A DNA stretch of 24,520 nucleotides from NCBI GenBank assembly GCA_964447495.1, contig CAYUTF010000048.1, positions 1-24,520 on the forward strand, given 5' to 3'. Both the position numbers and the translations under genes were made by a program. A model generated the notes under the pieces. The model was not told the origin of the DNA. It made no database searches and saw nothing but the letters and a program-made list of their open reading frames with translations. Below are positions 4,489 to 14,840 of the stretch, one piece after another (the first letter of the stretch is position 1; the number at the start of each line of letters is the position of its first letter). This stretch comes from an uncultured archaeon. Its GTDB lineage: Archaea; Asgardarchaeota; Lokiarchaeia; Sigyniarchaeales; SOKP01.

Positions 4489-5379
4489 GTGGAGCTAGAA
4501 AAACAAATAGATGATAAATCGGACTTTTCTATTGATTTTATAACAAGTAGTGAGATTAGTCGCATCAGCTTGAAGTTTTTGTTAATTTATATCCCAATAT
4601 TTTGGCTTGGGGCTTTACCTGTCCTAATTTATGCCGTAGCGTATATCCCAAGATTAGAATATTGGATCGGTTCGCTATTTTATTTGCCTGTTTCGATATT
4701 CTTTATGATCTGTCTATTTATTATTGGATGTGTGTTTTTTTCTAAATTAATTCTTATTCTGTTGAATTTAATACATAAGCCAAAAGAAGGAATATTCAGA
4801 GCGAAAAAGGGAAATAAGGATTTTGAATATTGGTGTTTAAGGATTCAACTCAAAAAGATATCCATTTGGCTCTTAAATAATTGTCCTCTGCCCTGGCTTG
4901 ATATTTTAGCTTTTCGATGGTTTGGAGTTAAAGTAGATTTCTCCAGTCACATGATTGATGCGTGGGTGGATACAGAGTTTATAAATTTCGGAAGAAAGGT
5001 AATGGTTGGTCAGGGAGCAGTAGTTATGAGCTCTATGATATTAGGCAAGTACTTAATCATTAAAAGAATCTATTTGGAAGACTATACGGTTGTCGGTGGT
5101 CAATCAACAGTGTCTCCCGGAACGATTATTGGACAAGATACCGTTCTTGGCGCTTTATCAACTACAACATTTAATCAGGTTTTGGAGCAGAGCTGGCTTT
5201 ACTTTGGGTTTCCCGCTAAAAAACTCAAGGTAAATAAATATGCTGAAATAAAGCCAACCACAATTAAGAGAATTGACGTAGATAAATCCCTAAAGTATGA
5301 TGTTGCATATGATATAAATATAGATGAAGATAAGAAAGAACTGCTTAATAATAATCATAAAAAGTTAAAAGAGGATTAA
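4489..5379 (+). CDS. Module 2 subunit B: 2-TM + LbH acyltransferase-like protein
   Basis: IDFITSSEISRISLKFL N-terminal motif, FGRKVMVGQGAVVMSS, NIDEDKK C-terminal motif. GTG start is in frame with upstream subunit A. Confidence 0.75.
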   Translation: MELEKQIDDKSDFSIDFITSSEISRISLKFLLIYIPIFWLGALPVLIYAVAYIPRLEYWIGSLFYLPVSIFFMICLFIIGCVFFSKLILILLNLIHKPKEGIFRAKKGNKDFEYWCLRIQLKKISIWLLNNCPLPWLDILAFRWFGVKVDFSSHMIDAWVDTEFINFGRKVMVGQGAVVMSSMILGKYLIIKRIYLEDYTVVGGQSTVSPGTIIGQDTVLGALSTTTFNQVLEQSWLYFGFPAKKLKVNKYAEIKPTTIKRIDVDKSLKYDVAYDINIDEDKKELLNNNHKKLKED

Positions 5380-5383
5380 AATC

Positions 5384-6301
5384 ATGTCAGTTCCTTGTTC
5401 ATTACGTGTAGGGCCGTTTACTAGTAACATTTTGCTCAAGAAACGTTATGTTATGTTATATATCGCAATTTTTTGGTTTAGCCTTATCCCGGTGTTGATA
5501 GAATTCTGGGCTTATTGGCAGCTCTTATGGAGTGATACTAATGCGTTGCTATTTTATCTGTTTTTGCCGTTATATGGATTTTTAGCATATATTTCAACTG
5601 TATTTAGCGCATTGATAGTTGCAAAAATATTTTTAGAGGTTGCAAATGCAATTCATAAACCTCAAGAAGGAATTTTTGAGCGTAATAGCTCCGATAAAGA
5701 TTATAGATATTGGAATATTAGGTTAATTATTAAGAAATATCCTGCGTGGATATCTCATAGATTTCCTTTCCCCTTTTTGGATAATATATGTTTTAAGCTT
5801 TTTGGAGTAAAAACAAAGTTTTCGAACTCTTTGTTTGCTGGATGGGTAGATACCGAATTTATCACGTTCGGAAAAAATGTGGTAGTAGGGCAAGCAAGTA
5901 TTGTACAGTCATCAGTAATAATTGGGAATCTATTAATTATTAAAAAAGTTGCTATTAAAGATAATGTAAGAATAGGAGCTCATTCAGTAGTGATGCCTGG
6001 AACTATAATTGAGGAAAATTGCGTGCTAGCAGCCCATTCATTAACCACAGTTGAACAACATCTAGAAAAGAATTGGATTTATGTAGGAATACCTGCAGAA
6101 AAGTATAAAGTAAATAGATTTTATCAAGATAATATCGAAGAGCTTATTGATTTAAATGTTGATATCGAAGGCATAAGAGAAAAGTATGAAAAGTTATATG
6201 AAAGACAAGAACGAACCCAAGTTAGCTATTTACAACGTAAGAAGATAAAAGAAGAGAAAGTAAAGCACGAAAAGCAGAGATGGGAAAAGGTTACAAGCTA
6301 A
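5384..6301 (+). CDS. Module 2 subunit C: 2-TM + LbH acyltransferase-like protein
   Basis: MSVP..GPF, HRFPFPFLDNICFKLFGVKTKFSNSLF.GWVDTEFI, WIYVGIPA. Confidence 0.75.
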   Translation: MSVPCSLRVGPFTSNILLKKRYVMLYIAIFWFSLIPVLIEFWAYWQLLWSDTNALLFYLFLPLYGFLAYISTVFSALIVAKIFLEVANAIHKPQEGIFERNSSDKDYRYWNIRLIIKKYPAWISHRFPFPFLDNICFKLFGVKTKFSNSLFAGWVDTEFITFGKNVVVGQASIVQSSVIIGNLLIIKKVAIKDNVRIGAHSVVMPGTIIEENCVLAAHSLTTVEQHLEKNWIYVGIPAEKYKVNRFYQDNIEELIDLNVDIEGIREKYEKLYERQERTQVSYLQRKKIKEEKVKHEKQRWEKVTS

Positions 6302-7725: not shown

Positions 7726-7760
7726 GAATATACATATAAGTTATTGAACAAAAATAGATT

Positions 7761-7829
7761 AATTTGGTAAAGTGTGGCTAACTTAATCGAATGAAATTCT
7801 ATCATTTAAAATCTTATTCGGACCAAATC
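7761..7829 (-). other. RNA stem-loop in the 3' UTR of the TGA-containing peroxiredoxin-like gene (candidate non-canonical SECIS, or terminator between convergent genes)
   Basis: On the minus strand, CGAAUAAGAUUUUA-AAUGA-UAGAAUUUCAUUCG (7788-7820) pairs at 13 of 14 positions including 2 G-U, with an AA-starting loop. An outer helix GAUUUGGU/ACCAAAUU is possible (7822-7829 with 7761-7768). Confidence 0.35.
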
Positions 7830-7833
7830 GGAG

Positions 7834-8307
7834 TTAATTATTTAATTTTTCAAGTATTTTGAATAATTCTTCATTCTCAGGGATATCATCCATTGAATCG
7901 CTATAATAGGCATATTTTATAATTCCTTGTTTATCGATTATAAGAAGTGCCGGCATCCTTCCCATTTTTAATGGCTTTACTTCTTGTTTTAACAATTTAT
8001 TAACCTCTTTTTTATCGTCATAATATATGGGATACGTTTCTGCAAATGTAGATTCAAAGTTCTTGGCATTTTCAAGGTTATCTGGTAAGATTGCGTAAAT
8101 CTCGGTATTATAACTTTTAAATTTTACATACGCATCTCGAATTTTCTTTGCATGGGCTTTAGCATAGGGTCAACTTTTACTCCTGAAAAGTATAATTATA
8201 GCATTTTTCTTCCCTTTGAACTCACGAATATTTGTTGTAGCGCCTTGAGAATTCGCTAATGAGAATTCTGAAATTTGTGTTCCTACTAGATTAAATTTAT
8301 CTTTCAT
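7834..8307 (-). CDS. Peroxiredoxin-like (AhpC/TSA, thioredoxin-fold) protein with in-frame TGA at codon 46; putative selenoprotein
   Basis: Manual translation: MKDKFNLVGTQISEFSLANSQGATTNIREFKGKKNAIIILFRSKS-U-PYAKAHAKKIRDAYVKFKSYNTEIYAILPDNLENAKNFESTFAETYPIYYDDKKEVNKLLKQEVKPLKMGRMPALLIIDKQGIIKYAYYSDSMDDIPENEELFKILEKLNN* (157 aa). TGA 8170-8172 aligns with the Cys of the R-x-x-W-C-P-x-C motif. Upstream GTGAG RBS-like sequence. Confidence 0.85.
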
Positions 8308-8427: not shown

Positions 8428-8829
8428 ATGGTACTTGTAATTAATTGGTTAGCAGTTATAGTTGTTGGATTAATCTATTTTGCCATCCATTTCTTCTGGT
8501 ATTTTCCTTTTGCTTTTGGAAACTTATGGCTAAAATTGGTAGGAAAAGAAAGTGAACCCAAATCAAAAATAATACGAGATACTATTATTATGATCCCAAC
8601 AAGCATAGTTACCGTACTTTTTATAGAAATTATGTTAGATTTAACGGGAATCATTGATATTGTAGGCGCATTGCTATTAACTTTCATATTATGGGTAGGG
8701 TTTGTAGCTACAATTGCTATTAATCAAAACAACTTCAATGATAGAGGCGTGAAATTATTTCTCTTGGAATATGGCTTTTATCTTATAGGATTCTTACTTG
8801 CGGGAGTAATATTAGTTGTGTGGGTCTAA
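8428..8829 (+). CDS. DUF1761-family membrane protein
   Basis: INWLAVIV..FFWY.P..FGNLW N-terminal signature, four TM helices, AGGTGAG RBS upstream. Confidence 0.8.
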   Translation: MVLVINWLAVIVVGLIYFAIHFFWYFPFAFGNLWLKLVGKESEPKSKIIRDTIIMIPTSIVTVLFIEIMLDLTGIIDIVGALLLTFILWVGFVATIAINQNNFNDRGVKLFLLEYGFYLIGFLLAGVILVVWV

Positions 8830-12775: not shown

Positions 12776-12974
12776 AAAATATCCCACCTAAATTAAAGTT
12801 TCAATTGTATATGTATCAAAAAAATAATATCATCTAATGTCAATATAAGTTTAAAAGAAAAAAAACATATCTATAAAAATAAATGTAGGTTTTTTGTGGA
12901 AATTTCAAAATATATATTTAACCTCTAGAGAAATTTTATCAATAAAATGGAAAAAAATAACTTAATTGATATTT

Positions 12975-14840
12975 ATGAGCAAAGAAGGTATTGCATATGA
13001 AGAACCTGCTATAGTTAACCCACCTAAAGATATCATTAGGGAAGATATAAATATGCAATATTCCCTATATATTACCATCTTTATTTTGATATATTACGGG
13101 TCTTGGATACTTCCGGGATTCATCTTCTTTATTTATATAAATGAATTTTTTTTGAGCAATTTTTTAGATGTGGGCAGTTTCTTCTCACTTTTCACAGAAT
13201 TAAACCCGTTAATAGCGTTAATAACCTTTCCATTAGTATTGATAGGTTGCTATTTAATTCGGCTTCTTTCAGTTGGAATAACAACAAAGATTTTTTGGAG
13301 AATAACTGAAAAAATCTCTCCTTCCAAATCAGGCATAATTCCTCGTAACATTCGAAGTAAAGCTGCAAATTATTATCATTTACGAAGTTTCATGATAAAA
13401 TACGGAAAGAATATTTTTACCAAGGGTGCATTCCCTTGGCTATCTAATTGGTTTTTTAAATTCGTCGGTTCTTCAAAAATTGGAAAAGGAACAACGATTG
13501 AAGAATCGGTGGGCTCTGACAAGTTTATTGACATTGGAAAAAATTGTTATATCGGCGTAAATAGTACATTAGCCAGTCATTTAGTCCAAGGAATATTTGG
13601 AAATATCTCCTATTTTGAAATAAAAGTGGGAGATAACGTGACCACTGCTGGGATGAATCAACTTGGTCCAGGGTGTGAGATTCATGATAACTCGTATTTA
13701 TTACCATTAGCATCCACAAGTAAGCATAGCATTTTAAAAGGAGGGCATAACTATTACTTTGGGATTCCCCTGCGTAAAATCTTTAAAAAGAAAATTATGC
13801 AATACTTGGGAATTACAAAAAAGGATATTGAAAGGAATGAAAATATTGAGCAAGCGATAAAAGAGCTGAAAGAAAGGAAAAAGAAAAAGATTGAGCCAGA
13901 GGAACAAAGCGAGACAGAAGATGATTTAGAGGATACAGAAGATACAGAAGAAGTATCGGAAGAGGGGGAAGTTAATGAAGAATTAAAAGAAGAAGAACTT
14001 AATATTGACTTTACAACCAGTAGTGCGATTAGTAGGGTGAATCTAAAGTTTTTAGCGGTATATCTCCCTATTTTCTGGTTAGCAGGATTATTGATTTCAA
14101 TTTATTGGTACGAATATACAAAAGAAGGTATTATGCTATCGACTCTTTTATTTTTACCCATAAGTATTCTATTTATGATCTATATTTTCATCTTAGGATG
14201 CCTTCTGTTTAGTAAATTAATCCTTATTCTTGTAAATTTGATTCATAAACCAAAAGAAGGAATATTTTTAGCGGAAATAAGGGATACGGATTATGAGTTT
14301 TGGATGTTGAGAACTGCGATTAGAAAGATAACACTATGGCTGTTAAGGAACTCTCCTTTAACTTGGTTAGATATGATCGCTTTTAAAGCTCTTGGATTGG
14401 AAATGGATGCGGGAAGTCACCTCAATGATGCATGGTGTGATGCTGAATTCGTTAAGATTGGTCGTAAAGTGTTAGTTGGACAGGGTGCTACTGTAATGTC
14501 ATCAATGGTAATAGGAAAATATTTAATAATTAAGAAGGTTATTTTTGATGATTATTCCATGGTCGGGGGGCATACTACTATTGCACCAGGGACAATTATT
14601 GGACATGATGGAGTAATAGGAGCAATAAGTTCAACATCGTATTGTCAAGTGTTAAAAGATAATTGGATTTATTTTGGATTTCCCGCAATTGCCCTAAAAG
14701 AAAATAAATATGCGGAAGAGCGGAGGGATCTCATCGTCAAAAGGGATGTGGATGGTGAAGAAAAGTTTGAATTAGATTACGATGTTAATATTGATGAAGA
14801 TAAGAAAAAACTAATAAGGCTCAAGGAGGATAAGGAATAA
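12975..14840 (+). CDS. Module 3 A+B fusion: two (2-TM + LbH) repeats joined by a basic/acidic linker
   Basis: N-half matches subunit A (IPRNI.SK..NYYH.RSFMIKY, ASHLVQGIFGNISY). C-half matches subunit B (IDFTTSSAISRVNLKFL, VGQGATVMSS, VNIDEDKK). ATG 12975 preferred to TTG 12966. Confidence 0.8.
   Translation: MSKEGIAYEEPAIVNPPKDIIREDINMQYSLYITIFILIYYGSWILPGFIFFIYINEFFLSNFLDVGSFFSLFTELNPLIALITFPLVLIGCYLIRLLSVGITTKIFWRITEKISPSKSGIIPRNIRSKAANYYHLRSFMIKYGKNIFTKGAFPWLSNWFFKFVGSSKIGKGTTIEESVGSDKFIDIGKNCYIGVNSTLASHLVQGIFGNISYFEIKVGDNVTTAGMNQLGPGCEIHDNSYLLPLASTSKHSILKGGHNYYFGIPLRKIFKKKIMQYLGITKKDIERNENIEQAIKELKERKKKKIEPEEQSETEDDLEDTEDTEEVSEEGEVNEELKEEELNIDFTTSSAISRVNLKFLAVYLPIFWLAGLLISIYWYEYTKEGIMLSTLLFLPISILFMIYIFILGCLLFSKLILILVNLIHKPKEGIFLAEIRDTDYEFWMLRTAIRKITLWLLRNSPLTWLDMIAFKALGLEMDAGSHLNDAWCDAEFVKIGRKVLVGQGATVMSSMVIGKYLIIKKVIFDDYSMVGGHTTIAPGTIIGHDGVIGAISSTSYCQVLKDNWIYFGFPAIALKENKYAEERRDLIVKRDVDGEEKFELDYDVNIDEDKKKLIRLKEDKE

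What the first reader, a model, noticed from the sequence alone, without database searches (positions are those of the whole stretch)
7834..8307. Unannotated Cys-free peroxiredoxin-like selenoprotein with a UxxA motif
Seen: a 157-codon minus-strand frame absent from the ORF track, interrupted only by TGA (8170-8172) exactly at the redox position (FRSKS-U-PYA). AhpC/TSA-like sequence is intact on both sides and the protein has no Cys. TGA is a normal stop elsewhere in the window (1282, 12369, 23152) and Trp is TGG, so this is not code reassignment. Established: Sec is encoded by UGA and replaces catalytic Cys in thioredoxin-fold proteins, and Lokiarchaeia are known to use Sec. Inference: a single-Sec redox protein lacking the resolving Cys of the usual UxxC/CxxC motif.
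Basis: partly seen in the sequence, partly recalled or inferred. Interest (0 to 1): 0.75.

Follow-up and report, generated by a model that had tools for sequence, protein, structure and literature searches.

The report
Cysteine-free Prx-like selenoprotein gene (UxxA)
This is a real, intact gene of a Loki-type archaeon for a small redox protein whose only reactive residue is a selenocysteine; the protein family is already published, and this copy belongs to a conserved branch that has lost the partner cysteine.

Summary
Window 7834-8307 (-) is a 157-codon frame with one TGA (8170-8172, codon 46) in F-R-S-K-S-U-P-Y-A, and it encodes no Cys.

It is not a pseudogene. All 85 homologues extracted from the same order carry TGA in that column. 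19 form one group with U-x-x-A/S/T and no Cys. Median dN/dS is 0.13, the same downstream of the TGA.

The genome has tRNA-Sec, SepSecS, EFSec, a Sec-containing SelD and a PSTK-like kinase.

A conserved Y-shaped RNA follows the stop codon (19 of 20 pairs covary). It is absent behind two TGA-less paralogues. It lacks the AUGA/GA core of the lokiSECIS that this genome uses behind HdrA-VhuD.

The family is the published Asgard PrxL (Mariotti 2016, Huang 2024). UPYA-type sequences are already in Huang's supplementary alignment, and this scan has met the Cys-free form before on other DNA. The texts I read give only UxxC/UxxU.

Verdict: a real selenoprotein gene and a little-noted variant of a known family. 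It probably works as a one-selenol enzyme that needs an outside thiol. Interest is modest.

The parts
7834..8307 (-). Coding sequence of the PrxL-type selenoprotein: 157 codons plus TAA stop at 7834-7836, ATG start at 8305-8307
   Evidence: translation; AhpC-TSA 2.6e-21 across the TGA; AlphaFold2 model, mean pLDDT 96.3; best solved match Bcp1 3drn, TM 0.85
8170..8172 (-). In-frame TGA, codon 46, read as selenocysteine. It is the last residue before helix 47-58, at the first position of the redox box
   Evidence: TGA in this column in 85 of 85 homologues and 19 of 19 in the UxxA/S/T group. Unchanged in contigs of 4 other runs. Aligns with Ser/Thr of Prx S/T-x-x-C and with Cys of P0071
8161..8163 (-). 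GCT, Ala49, in the place of the second redox-box Cys (the resolving Cys of UxxC, the peroxidatic Cys of true Prx)
   Evidence: at this codon the 19 group members use GCT, GCG, GCC or GCA (16 Ala), TCT (2 Ser) or ACT (1 Thr), never a Cys codon or TGA. One search gives the alignment to Prx Cys
7757..7840 (-). Conserved Y-shaped 3'UTR RNA, the candidate SECIS. By the window's own fold: outer stem 7822-7829 with 7761-7768, hairpin A 7788-7820 (lokiSECIS-like stem and A-rich loop), hairpin B 7770-7784 with loop UAGCCAC
   Evidence: Model R1 match 71.5 bits, MFE fold of the window copy, covariation on 82 copies, only two copies in the genome, both behind PrxL genes
8428..8829 (+). Divergently transcribed DUF1761 gene. 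It is a conserved neighbour and was duplicated together with PrxL in one relative. Context only, no shown function
   Evidence: PF08570, 2.1e-18; family f2 lies next to PrxL in 12 of 31 loci, and the f2+PrxL unit is tandemly repeated in L027
6308..7210 (+). UvdE UV-damage endonuclease gene. It is a conserved downstream neighbour of both PrxL groups (synteny marker)
   Evidence: PF03851, 2.3e-69; family f3 is present in 11 of 31 loci, of both groups

Best explanation
The frame is an intact, expressed-as-one-protein selenoprotein gene of a Loki-type Asgard archaeon. UGA46 is decoded as selenocysteine by the genome's archaeal/eukaryote-type Sec machinery. Decoding is probably directed by the conserved Y-shaped RNA directly behind the stop codon. 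The product is a cytoplasmic, 157-residue, BCP/PrxQ-like thioredoxin-fold protein of the PrxL family. It belongs to a derived sub-clade in which the second redox-box residue is Ala (rarely Ser or Thr) and no Cys remains anywhere. Sec46 at the N-cap of helix 1 is therefore the only redox-active residue. The protein cannot close an intramolecular Se-S or Se-Se bond. It most likely cycles by a 'one-selenol' mechanism: Sec46 is oxidised by a peroxide or a disulfide substrate to a selenenic acid or a mixed selenenylsulfide. An outside thiol, either a thioredoxin-type protein or a small thiol, then regenerates it, as in glutathione peroxidases, 1-Cys peroxiredoxins and monothiol glutaredoxins. Shown by computation: gene integrity, TGA conservation, purifying selection, Sec machinery, fold, position of Sec and Ala, and the link between the RNA and TGA. 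Inferred: actual Sec insertion (about 0.95), SECIS role of the RNA (about 0.7), one-selenol catalysis with an external thiol (about 0.5). Substrate unknown.
For: Gene and codon.

Conservation: 87 of 154 genomes of the order have a homologue. In the 85 homologues extracted, TGA sits at the same column in 85 of 85. 19 are U-x-x-A/S/T with 0 Cys, 65 are UxxC and 1 is UxxU.

The 19 form one group on a quick ML tree (1 change, SH-aLRT 87, 0 of 500 shuffles as low). They occur only in family f1, and UxxC sequences of other families lie outside the group.

Selection: majority-residue conservation is 0.81 upstream and 0.83 downstream of Sec. Median dN/dS is 0.13 overall and 0.13 downstream, in the 69 of 171 pairs with 0.05<dS<1.5. 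Ala49 is kept through four synonymous codons.

Sec machinery: tRNA-Sec (anticodon tca) lies next to SepSecS (475 bits); EFSec scores 245 bits, over the cut-off; SelD has one in-frame TGA; a KTI12/PSTK-type kinase is present. Two HdrA-VhuD pairs with in-frame TGAs and canonical lokiSECIS show the system is in use.

RNA: model R1 finds the element behind 82 gene copies in 85 loci. 95.8% of cells are paired, 19 of 20 pairs have compensatory changes, 0 of 500 shuffles reach this, and slid controls give 30-50%. The genome has only two copies, both behind PrxL genes. It is present in 13 of 14 further loci from other families and classes of the phylum. It is absent behind both TGA-less paralogues, which read D-L-F-C.

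Fold: pLDDT 96.3, with Sec46 just before helix 47-58. TM is 0.85 to Bcp1. U46 aligns to Ser/Thr and A49 to the Cys of Prx S/T-x-x-C, and Arg117 aligns to the Arg of Bcp1.

Cys pair: P0071 has C-P-F-C at the site.
Against: There is no direct evidence of expression or selenium incorporation, and no RNA run holding the stretch was listed.

The 3'UTR RNA lacks the AUGA...GA quartet that defines published lokiSECIS/eSECIS-like elements. The base pairs at the foot of both helices covary as Watson-Crick pairs. No Rfam family matches.

RNAalifold predicted no structure on the plain MAFFT alignment. I drew the three-helix structure by eye, and the pair counts were made on an alignment fitted to it, which favours it. 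The window's own copy folds only modestly better than shuffles (z = -1.88, 9 of 200 shuffles as good).

The tree is the quick version, because the careful search did not finish. It is midpoint-rooted on a long branch, so 'derived from UxxC' is an inference.

The one-selenol mechanism rests on the absence of Cys and on analogy, not on any assay. A homodimeric diselenide could not be tested.
Confidence: 0.8

Rival explanations
1. Pseudogene: a decaying PrxL copy in which TGA simply terminates translation and the downstream part is no longer expressed.
For: Decayed copies of this very group exist elsewhere. One genome has a copy with 2 TGA and 3 TAA next to an intact UxxC gene, and another has only a C-terminal fragment (L069_2; second R1 hit in L051). 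Loss of the partner Cys could be read as loss of function.
Against: TGA is in the same column in 19 of 19 group members and 85 of 85 homologues. There are no other stops or frameshifts. dN/dS downstream of the TGA is 0.13, and downstream conservation is 0.83 against 0.81 upstream. Ala49 is kept through four synonymous codons. The 3' RNA element is retained.
Confidence: 0.02
2. Stop-codon reassignment: the organism reads every TGA as Trp or Gly, as public gene calls on short contigs assume (they put W at position 46).
For: 52 of the 57 database proteins of 140 residues or more could be parsed by the motif pattern, and all 52 carry W at this position, so they were called with TGA=Trp.
Against: In 23 large ORFs of the window TGA is never in frame (0 against 117 TGG) and ends 3 of them. 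The only tRNA with anticodon tca is a tRNA-Sec. The in-frame TGAs found are confined to known selenoprotein families: SelD, HdrA, VhuD and PrxL.
Confidence: 0.01
3. Two-component redox pair: the UxxA protein is resolved by the UxxC paralogue, or by a second copy of itself through an intermolecular diselenide, not by a general thiol.
For: This genome has both forms. In one relative they lie in tandem, and two others keep remnants of such a tandem. Typical 2-Cys peroxiredoxins resolve between subunits (established knowledge).
Against: 17 of the 19 genomes with an intact UxxA/S/T gene show no second homologue at E<=1e-10 (completeness 82-100%). The UxxC partner is therefore not generally available. 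The homodimer variant remains open.
Confidence: 0.12
4. Non-catalytic use of the single Sec: selenium, sulfur or metal binding or transfer, or a redox sensor that traps partners as stable mixed selenenylsulfides (as CxxS proteins such as ERp44 do).
For: A protein with one chalcogen and no resolving residue is what one expects of a trap or carrier. Several active-site-flanking residues changed together with the Cys: I44K, R50K, M84F and G120A are each at least 85% fixed in both groups. This suggests a new specificity.
Against: The Prx-type Arg117 and invariant Arg42 around the site are retained, which fits catalysis. No metal-binding neighbours or motifs were seen. Nothing here tests it directly.
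Confidence: 0.1

Closest known systems
PrxL / 'Prx-like protein' selenoproteins of Lokiarchaeota and other Asgard archaea (Mariotti et al. 2016, PMC4989117: passages and section 11 read; Huang, Xiao & Zhang 2024, PMC11227280: sections 13-14 and supplementary alignment searched)
   Same: Same protein family, with 45-78% identity to the order's members. Sec is at the first redox-box position and there is no Cys outside the box. It is confined to Sec-using Asgard lineages. UPYA-type sequences such as ...FRSKS-X-PYAKAHSEK... are in Huang's supplementary Prx-like alignment.
   Different: The texts I read describe the box as UxxC or UxxU; here the second position is Ala, Ser or Thr. The published lokiSECIS is AUGA, a 9-bp stem, an 11-nt loop, then GA. 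Here the same kind of hairpin sits in a three-way junction without the AUGA/GA quartet. I could not read Mariotti's supplement (too large). I also found no SECIS sequences in Huang's held supplement. So I cannot say how they modelled the SECIS of this subfamily.
[quoted passage not shown]
   Same: Prx-like or Trx-like fold, with Sec at the first box position and a non-Cys residue at +3. They are predicted, uncharacterised oxidoreductases.
   Different: They are bacterial, use bacterial in-frame SECIS, and are different subfamilies. No homology closer than the superfamily was tested here.
BCP/PrxQ peroxiredoxins (e.g. Sulfolobus Bcp1, PDB 3drn)
   Same: Best structural match (TM 0.85, rmsd 1.8 over 149 columns) and best sequence match among solved structures (E 2.7e-07). 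The conserved Arg is kept (Arg117).
   Different: The peroxidatic Cys position is Ala49. The Thr/Ser position is Sec46, and the motif Pro is Arg42. It is therefore not a peroxiredoxin in mechanism.
Glutathione peroxidases, 1-Cys peroxiredoxins and monothiol glutaredoxins (mechanistic analogues; recalled knowledge)
   Same: One catalytic Sec or Cys that is re-reduced by an external thiol through a mixed (seleno)sulfide.
   Different: There is no sequence relationship beyond the thioredoxin fold. I did not look for the GPx catalytic residues (Gln, Trp, Asn).

Membership tests
Selenoprotein (UGA decoded as Sec) | In-frame UGA conserved among orthologues, with conserved coding sequence on both sides | tested here: met
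   85 of 85 homologues carry TGA in the column. dN/dS is 0.13 downstream.
Selenoprotein (UGA decoded as Sec) | Cys in the same column in some homologues (Sec/Cys pair) | tested here: met
   P0071 and P0086 read C-P-F-C. P0071 aligns without gaps, 41% identical.
Selenoprotein (UGA decoded as Sec) | Genome encodes tRNA-Sec, PSTK, SepSecS, EFSec and SelD | tested here: met
   The PSTK candidate is below the NCBIfam cut-off (144.8 against 290.5 bits) but is a clear KTI12/PSTK-family kinase (PF08433, 4.5e-38).
Selenoprotein (UGA decoded as Sec) | A SECIS element serving the gene | tested here: inconclusive
   A conserved, covarying 3'UTR RNA is tied to TGA-bearing genes. It has no canonical SECIS core and no Rfam match. 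Its function is untested.
Selenoprotein (UGA decoded as Sec) | Selenium in the protein | not testable with these tools
   Needs 75Se labelling or mass spectrometry.
Asgard PrxL (as defined in Mariotti 2016) | Prx-like thioredoxin fold with Sec at the first position of a CxxC-type redox box | tested here: met
Asgard PrxL (as defined in Mariotti 2016) | Second redox-box residue is Cys or Sec (UxxC / UxxU) | tested here: not met
   Ala49 (GCT). The group has 16 Ala, 2 Ser and 1 Thr in 19 members.
Asgard PrxL (as defined in Mariotti 2016) | No Cys outside the redox box | tested here: met
   0 Cys in 19 of 19 group members.
Asgard PrxL (as defined in Mariotti 2016) | lokiSECIS just after the stop codon: AUGA, 9-bp stem, 11-nt A-rich loop ending in G, then GA | tested here: not met
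   The stem and A-rich loop are present. Loops are 11-19 nt, at least 3 of the first five bases are A in 75 of 82 copies, and the loop ends AG in 24 and GA in 18. But the flanking bases pair as Watson-Crick (G-C and A-U, covarying) and the hairpin is one arm of a three-way junction. Canonical elements do exist in this genome behind HdrA-VhuD.
Peroxiredoxin (true Prx, BCP/PrxQ class) | Peroxidatic Cys in the P-x-x-x-T/S-x-x-C motif | tested here: not met
   The Cys column is Ala49, the T/S column is Sec46 and the Pro column is Arg42 (alignments).
Peroxiredoxin (true Prx, BCP/PrxQ class) | Conserved active-site Arg | tested here: met
   Arg117 aligns with the Arg of Bcp1 ...PARIT... and is at least 90% conserved. 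That this Arg is the catalytic one is recalled, not tested.

The most novel reading that the evidence does not exclude
Two linked points may be new. First, the PrxL UxxA/S/T clade is a natural one-selenol enzyme, and TGA-less D-x-x-C paralogues keep only the other box position. The family would then have split a two-residue redox box into two single-residue forms. Second, Sec is inserted into this whole PrxL subfamily by a SECIS without a kink-turn core. This SECIS is a three-way junction whose lokiSECIS-like apical hairpin is paired with a second hairpin bearing a near-invariant UAGCCA loop. If so, the Asgard Sec machinery recognises the apical loop plus an auxiliary hairpin and not the AUGA/GA quartet. 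That bears on the proposed archaeal-to-eukaryotic SECIS transition.
Probability: 0.3. Interest if true: 0.65.

Novelty: new variant of a known kind. Interest (0 to 1): 0.38.

Why it matters
For annotation: public gene calls handle this gene badly. Some cut it to an 88-115-residue 'peroxiredoxin' fragment. Others read W at the Sec site. The window's copy should be annotated as one Sec-containing PrxL gene.

For biochemistry: a conserved, selected thioredoxin-fold protein with Sec as its only chalcogen is a natural experiment. It asks whether selenium makes the resolving cysteine dispensable. It is small, well folded in prediction, and easy to compare with its UxxC paralogue from the same genome.

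For Sec decoding: the RNA behind these genes does not fit the published Asgard SECIS model, while canonical elements serve other genes in the same genome. The system may therefore accept two RNA architectures.

None of this changes the picture of selenium use in Asgard archaea. The family and its members are already catalogued.

Tried and rejected
Rfam: no family at gathering score in the whole window. Only chance-level matches (E 2.5-9.3) appeared on the 3'UTR.

RNAalifold on the plain MAFFT alignment of 82 3'UTRs predicted no pairs. I then wrote the structure by hand and used a covariance model.

Expression: no RNA holder was listed for the stretch, so nothing can be said either way.

No verdict was obtained and I did not pursue it by other means.

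Mariotti 2016 supplement: the archive is too large to read. Huang 2024 supplement: no hit for the RNA motifs, so their SECIS predictions for these genes could not be compared.

Literature search for UxxA, UxxS or UxxT motifs: no paper with 'UxxA' in a selenoprotein sense. UxxS and UxxT appear only for other families.

Careful ML tree: it did not finish in 300 s, so the quick tree was used.

Considered and dropped: assembly error at the TGA, code reassignment, and a K-turn formed at the foot of hairpin A or of the outer stem (both feet covary as Watson-Crick pairs).

The decayed copy L069_2 was left out of the tree, the motif counts and the RNA alignment. L103 was left out of the RNA seed and the group comparison. 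L100 and L101 were left out of the RNA seed because my anchor mis-placed them, and model R1 did not recover them at E<=0.01.

Full report
**1. The observation**

The minus-strand frame 8307..7834 is 157 codons long, from ATG to TAA. Its single internal stop is TGA at 8170-8172, which is codon 46. The local sequence is I-I-I-L-F-R-S-K-S-U-P-Y-A-K-A-H, and the frame has no cysteine codon.

Under the standard code the frame splits into ORFs of 45 and 53 residues, which explains why it is missing from an ORF track. Pfam AhpC-TSA aligns end to end across the TGA (residues 8-132, E 2.6e-21), and Redoxin does likewise. NCBIfam gives only sub-threshold matches to SelL-related, ResA and BCP models.

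In 23 large ORFs of the window, TGA ends 3 and never occurs in frame, against 117 TGG. Contigs from four other public runs cover the codon with no difference. These are assemblies, possibly from one campaign, so the support is weak but consistent.

**2. Not a pseudogene and not a recoded genome**

A six-frame search of 154 genomes of the same order found homologues in 87. I cut out the gene from every full-length match, which gave 85 sequences plus one decayed copy that I set aside. All 85 carry TGA in the aligned column. The box reads:

| Box | Sequences |
|---|---|
| U-x-x-C | 65 |
| U-x-x-U | 1 |
| U-x-x-A/S/T (16 Ala, 2 Ser, 1 Thr), including the window's gene | 19 |

All 19 in the last group have no Cys at all. 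62 of the 65 UxxC proteins have exactly the one box Cys.

On a quick maximum-likelihood tree the 19 form a single group (one change, SH-aLRT 87). They occur only in family f1, in 14 genomes of the window's genus and 5 of a second genus. UxxC sequences from three other families fall outside the group. The careful search did not finish and the root is a midpoint, so 'UxxC ancestral, UxxA derived' is an inference.

Within the group, conservation is the same before and after the TGA (0.81 and 0.83). Median dN/dS is 0.13 overall and 0.13 downstream, in the 69 of 171 pairs with usable dS. Ala49 is encoded by all four Ala codons, while Ser and Thr are single-base neighbours. This is purifying selection on a full-length product and on a non-Cys residue at +3.

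**3. Sec machinery**

The assembly has 223 contigs and is 98% complete by the tool's figure. It holds:

- one tRNA-Sec (anticodon tca), directly beside SepSecS (475 bits);
- an EFSec/SelB-type factor over the family cut-off (245 bits) on the same contig;
- a SelD with one in-frame TGA;
- a KTI12/PSTK-family kinase.

Two HdrA-VhuD gene pairs with in-frame TGAs are each followed by a textbook lokiSECIS: AUGA, a 9-bp stem, an 11-nt loop beginning AAAAA and ending AG, then GA. This is as described by Mariotti et al. 2016 (section 11 read). The genome also has two ordinary Cys-type AhpC/TSA genes and a second PrxL gene of the UxxC type (56% identical) on another contig.

**4. The RNA behind the gene**

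The 3'UTRs of both PrxL groups share an element that starts within a few bases of the stop codon. It has three parts:

- an outer 7-bp stem (GAUUUGG/CCAAAUC);
- hairpin A, a 9-bp stem with an A-rich loop;
- hairpin B, a 4-bp stem with the loop UAGCCA(C/U/A).

RNAalifold found nothing on a plain MAFFT alignment. I therefore wrote the structure by hand, built a covariance model and re-aligned. The model found 82 copies in 85 loci. On that alignment 95.8% of cells pair and 19 of 20 pairs show compensatory changes. No shuffle out of 500 reached this, and slid partners pair in only 30-50% of cells. The alignment is fitted to the model, which favours the structure. Even so, GC-rich relatives with fully different helices (seen) argue the same way.

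In the window's genome the model hits only twice, behind the two PrxL genes (window 7757-7840). In 14 further loci from other families and classes of the phylum it is present in 13. The locus without it holds a paralogue without TGA. A second TGA-less paralogue, lying beside a Sec form, also lacks it. Both read D-L-F-C at the box. The element therefore travels with the TGA.

Hairpin A resembles the lokiSECIS apical part. At least 3 of the first five loop bases are A in 75 of 82 copies, and the loop ends AG or GA in 42 of 82. But the feet of hairpin A and of the outer stem covary as G-C and A-U pairs, so there is no AUGA/GA quartet. No Rfam family matches. I call it the candidate SECIS, of non-canonical architecture. 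I could not check how the published studies scored these genes.

**5. The protein**

AlphaFold2 with a 48-sequence alignment gives a confident model (pLDDT 96.3, pTM 0.91), with Sec46 as the residue before helix 47-58. Its nearest solved structures are BCP/PrxQ peroxiredoxins (Bcp1 3drn, TM 0.85), followed by AhpC-type Prx and ResA.

In the sequence alignments to solved Prx structures:

- Sec46 falls on the Ser/Thr of the S/T-x-x-C motif;
- Ala49 falls on the peroxidatic Cys;
- Arg42 falls on the motif Pro;
- Arg117 falls on the conserved Arg.

So Sec occupies the thioredoxin-type nucleophile position, not the Prx peroxidatic position, and the second position is empty. A Cys-form relative (P0071, C-P-F-C) confirms the Sec/Cys pair. 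Four positions are fixed differently in the two groups: I44K, R50K, M84F and G120A. C49A and W51A fall just under my 85% threshold (motifs). This fits remodelling of the active site and not decay.

**6. How it most likely works**

Shown: an intact, selected gene with one Sec and no Cys, in a thioredoxin/Prx fold, in a genome that decodes Sec.

Inferred: Sec46 is the sole redox centre. It cannot be resolved inside the protein, so each turnover must pass through a selenenic acid or a mixed selenenylsulfide that an outside thiol resolves. This is the logic of GPx, 1-Cys Prx and monothiol Grx. Selenium's easy re-reduction may be what made the resolving Cys dispensable. I put this at about 0.5.

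The rivals are a partnership with the UxxC paralogue or a homodimeric diselenide, and a trap, carrier or sensor role. The first is weakened because 17 of 19 genomes with the UxxA form show no second homologue. The homodimer could not be tested.

**7. Origin**

The gene order is: 544-residue protein, DUF1761, PrxL, a small gene, UvdE. UxxA loci and UxxC loci of other genomes share this order. In one relative the DUF1761+PrxL unit is tandemly duplicated, with one copy of each type. Two others keep remnants. The UxxA form therefore probably arose by tandem duplication, followed by loss of one or the other copy.

**8. Comparison with what is known, and novelty**

The family is the PrxL or 'Prx-like protein' of Mariotti 2016 and Huang 2024. 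It is reported in 43% of Sec-using Asgard archaea. The texts I read give the box as UxxC or UxxU.

Huang's supplementary alignment nevertheless contains UPYA-type sequences labelled as Sec forms, so the proteins are catalogued. Single-Sec UxxS and UxxV thioredoxin-fold proteins are listed for bacteria. A library search for 'UxxA' found no selenoprotein paper.

Earlier notes of this scan on other genomes reached the same reading for the Cys-free form, the tandem pair and the odd RNA. I re-derived each point here.

I therefore rate the finding as a real gene and a conserved variant of a known family, with modest interest. The RNA architecture is the most open point.

Noticed in passing
L133 (G277:C126) 2107-2595 and L143 (G278:C159) 864-1370: Two TGA-less paralogues of the same family read D-L-F-C at the box: Asp in place of Sec, with the second Cys kept. 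They lack the 3' RNA element. This is the mirror image of the UxxA form.
   Followed up: partly
G000 contigs C25 (about 14610, minus strand) and C51 (about 4564, plus strand); loci L107, L108: Two HdrA-VhuD(FlpD) gene pairs, each gene with in-frame TGAs. Each pair is followed by one canonical lokiSECIS (AUGA, 9 bp, 11-nt loop, 9 bp, GA). The genome thus uses two different RNA architectures behind its selenoprotein genes.
   Followed up: partly
window 8428-8829 (+) and L027 (G050:C26): A DUF1761 membrane-protein gene is divergently paired with PrxL in 12 of 31 loci. In one relative the pair is duplicated as a unit, one copy with the UxxA gene and one with the UxxC gene. A functional link is possible but untested.
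   Followed up: partly
Database proteins P0002-P0121: Public gene calls of this family take two forms. Some are full-length with W at the Sec site, called with TGA=Trp on short contigs. Others are 88-115-residue C-terminal fragments named 'peroxiredoxin' or 'peroxiredoxin Q/BCP'. Both are mis-annotations of selenoprotein genes.
   Followed up: yes
P0035 and P0050: Two more distant metagenomic relatives (53% and 50% identical) read U-P-F-A and U-P-F-S, with flanks intermediate between the two groups. They may be an early branch or a second, independent loss of the box Cys.
   Followed up: no
L069 (G057:C69) and L051 (G052:C62): One genome has a decayed UxxA-type copy (2 TGA, 3 TAA) beside an intact UxxC gene. 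Another has a C-terminal fragment that still has its 3' RNA element (72.9 bits). These are remnants of the tandem arrangement.
   Followed up: partly
G000 contig C19, 37873-44471 (L015, L007): tRNA-Sec lies directly upstream of SepSecS on the same strand, and the EFSec gene is about 4 kb away. This is a small Sec-machinery cluster.
   Followed up: no
window 4489-6301 and 12966-14840: Several hexapeptide-repeat (LbH) proteins are in the window, two of them adjacent, one with weak eIF2B-epsilon-like LbH matches. They are unrelated to the finding.
   Followed up: no
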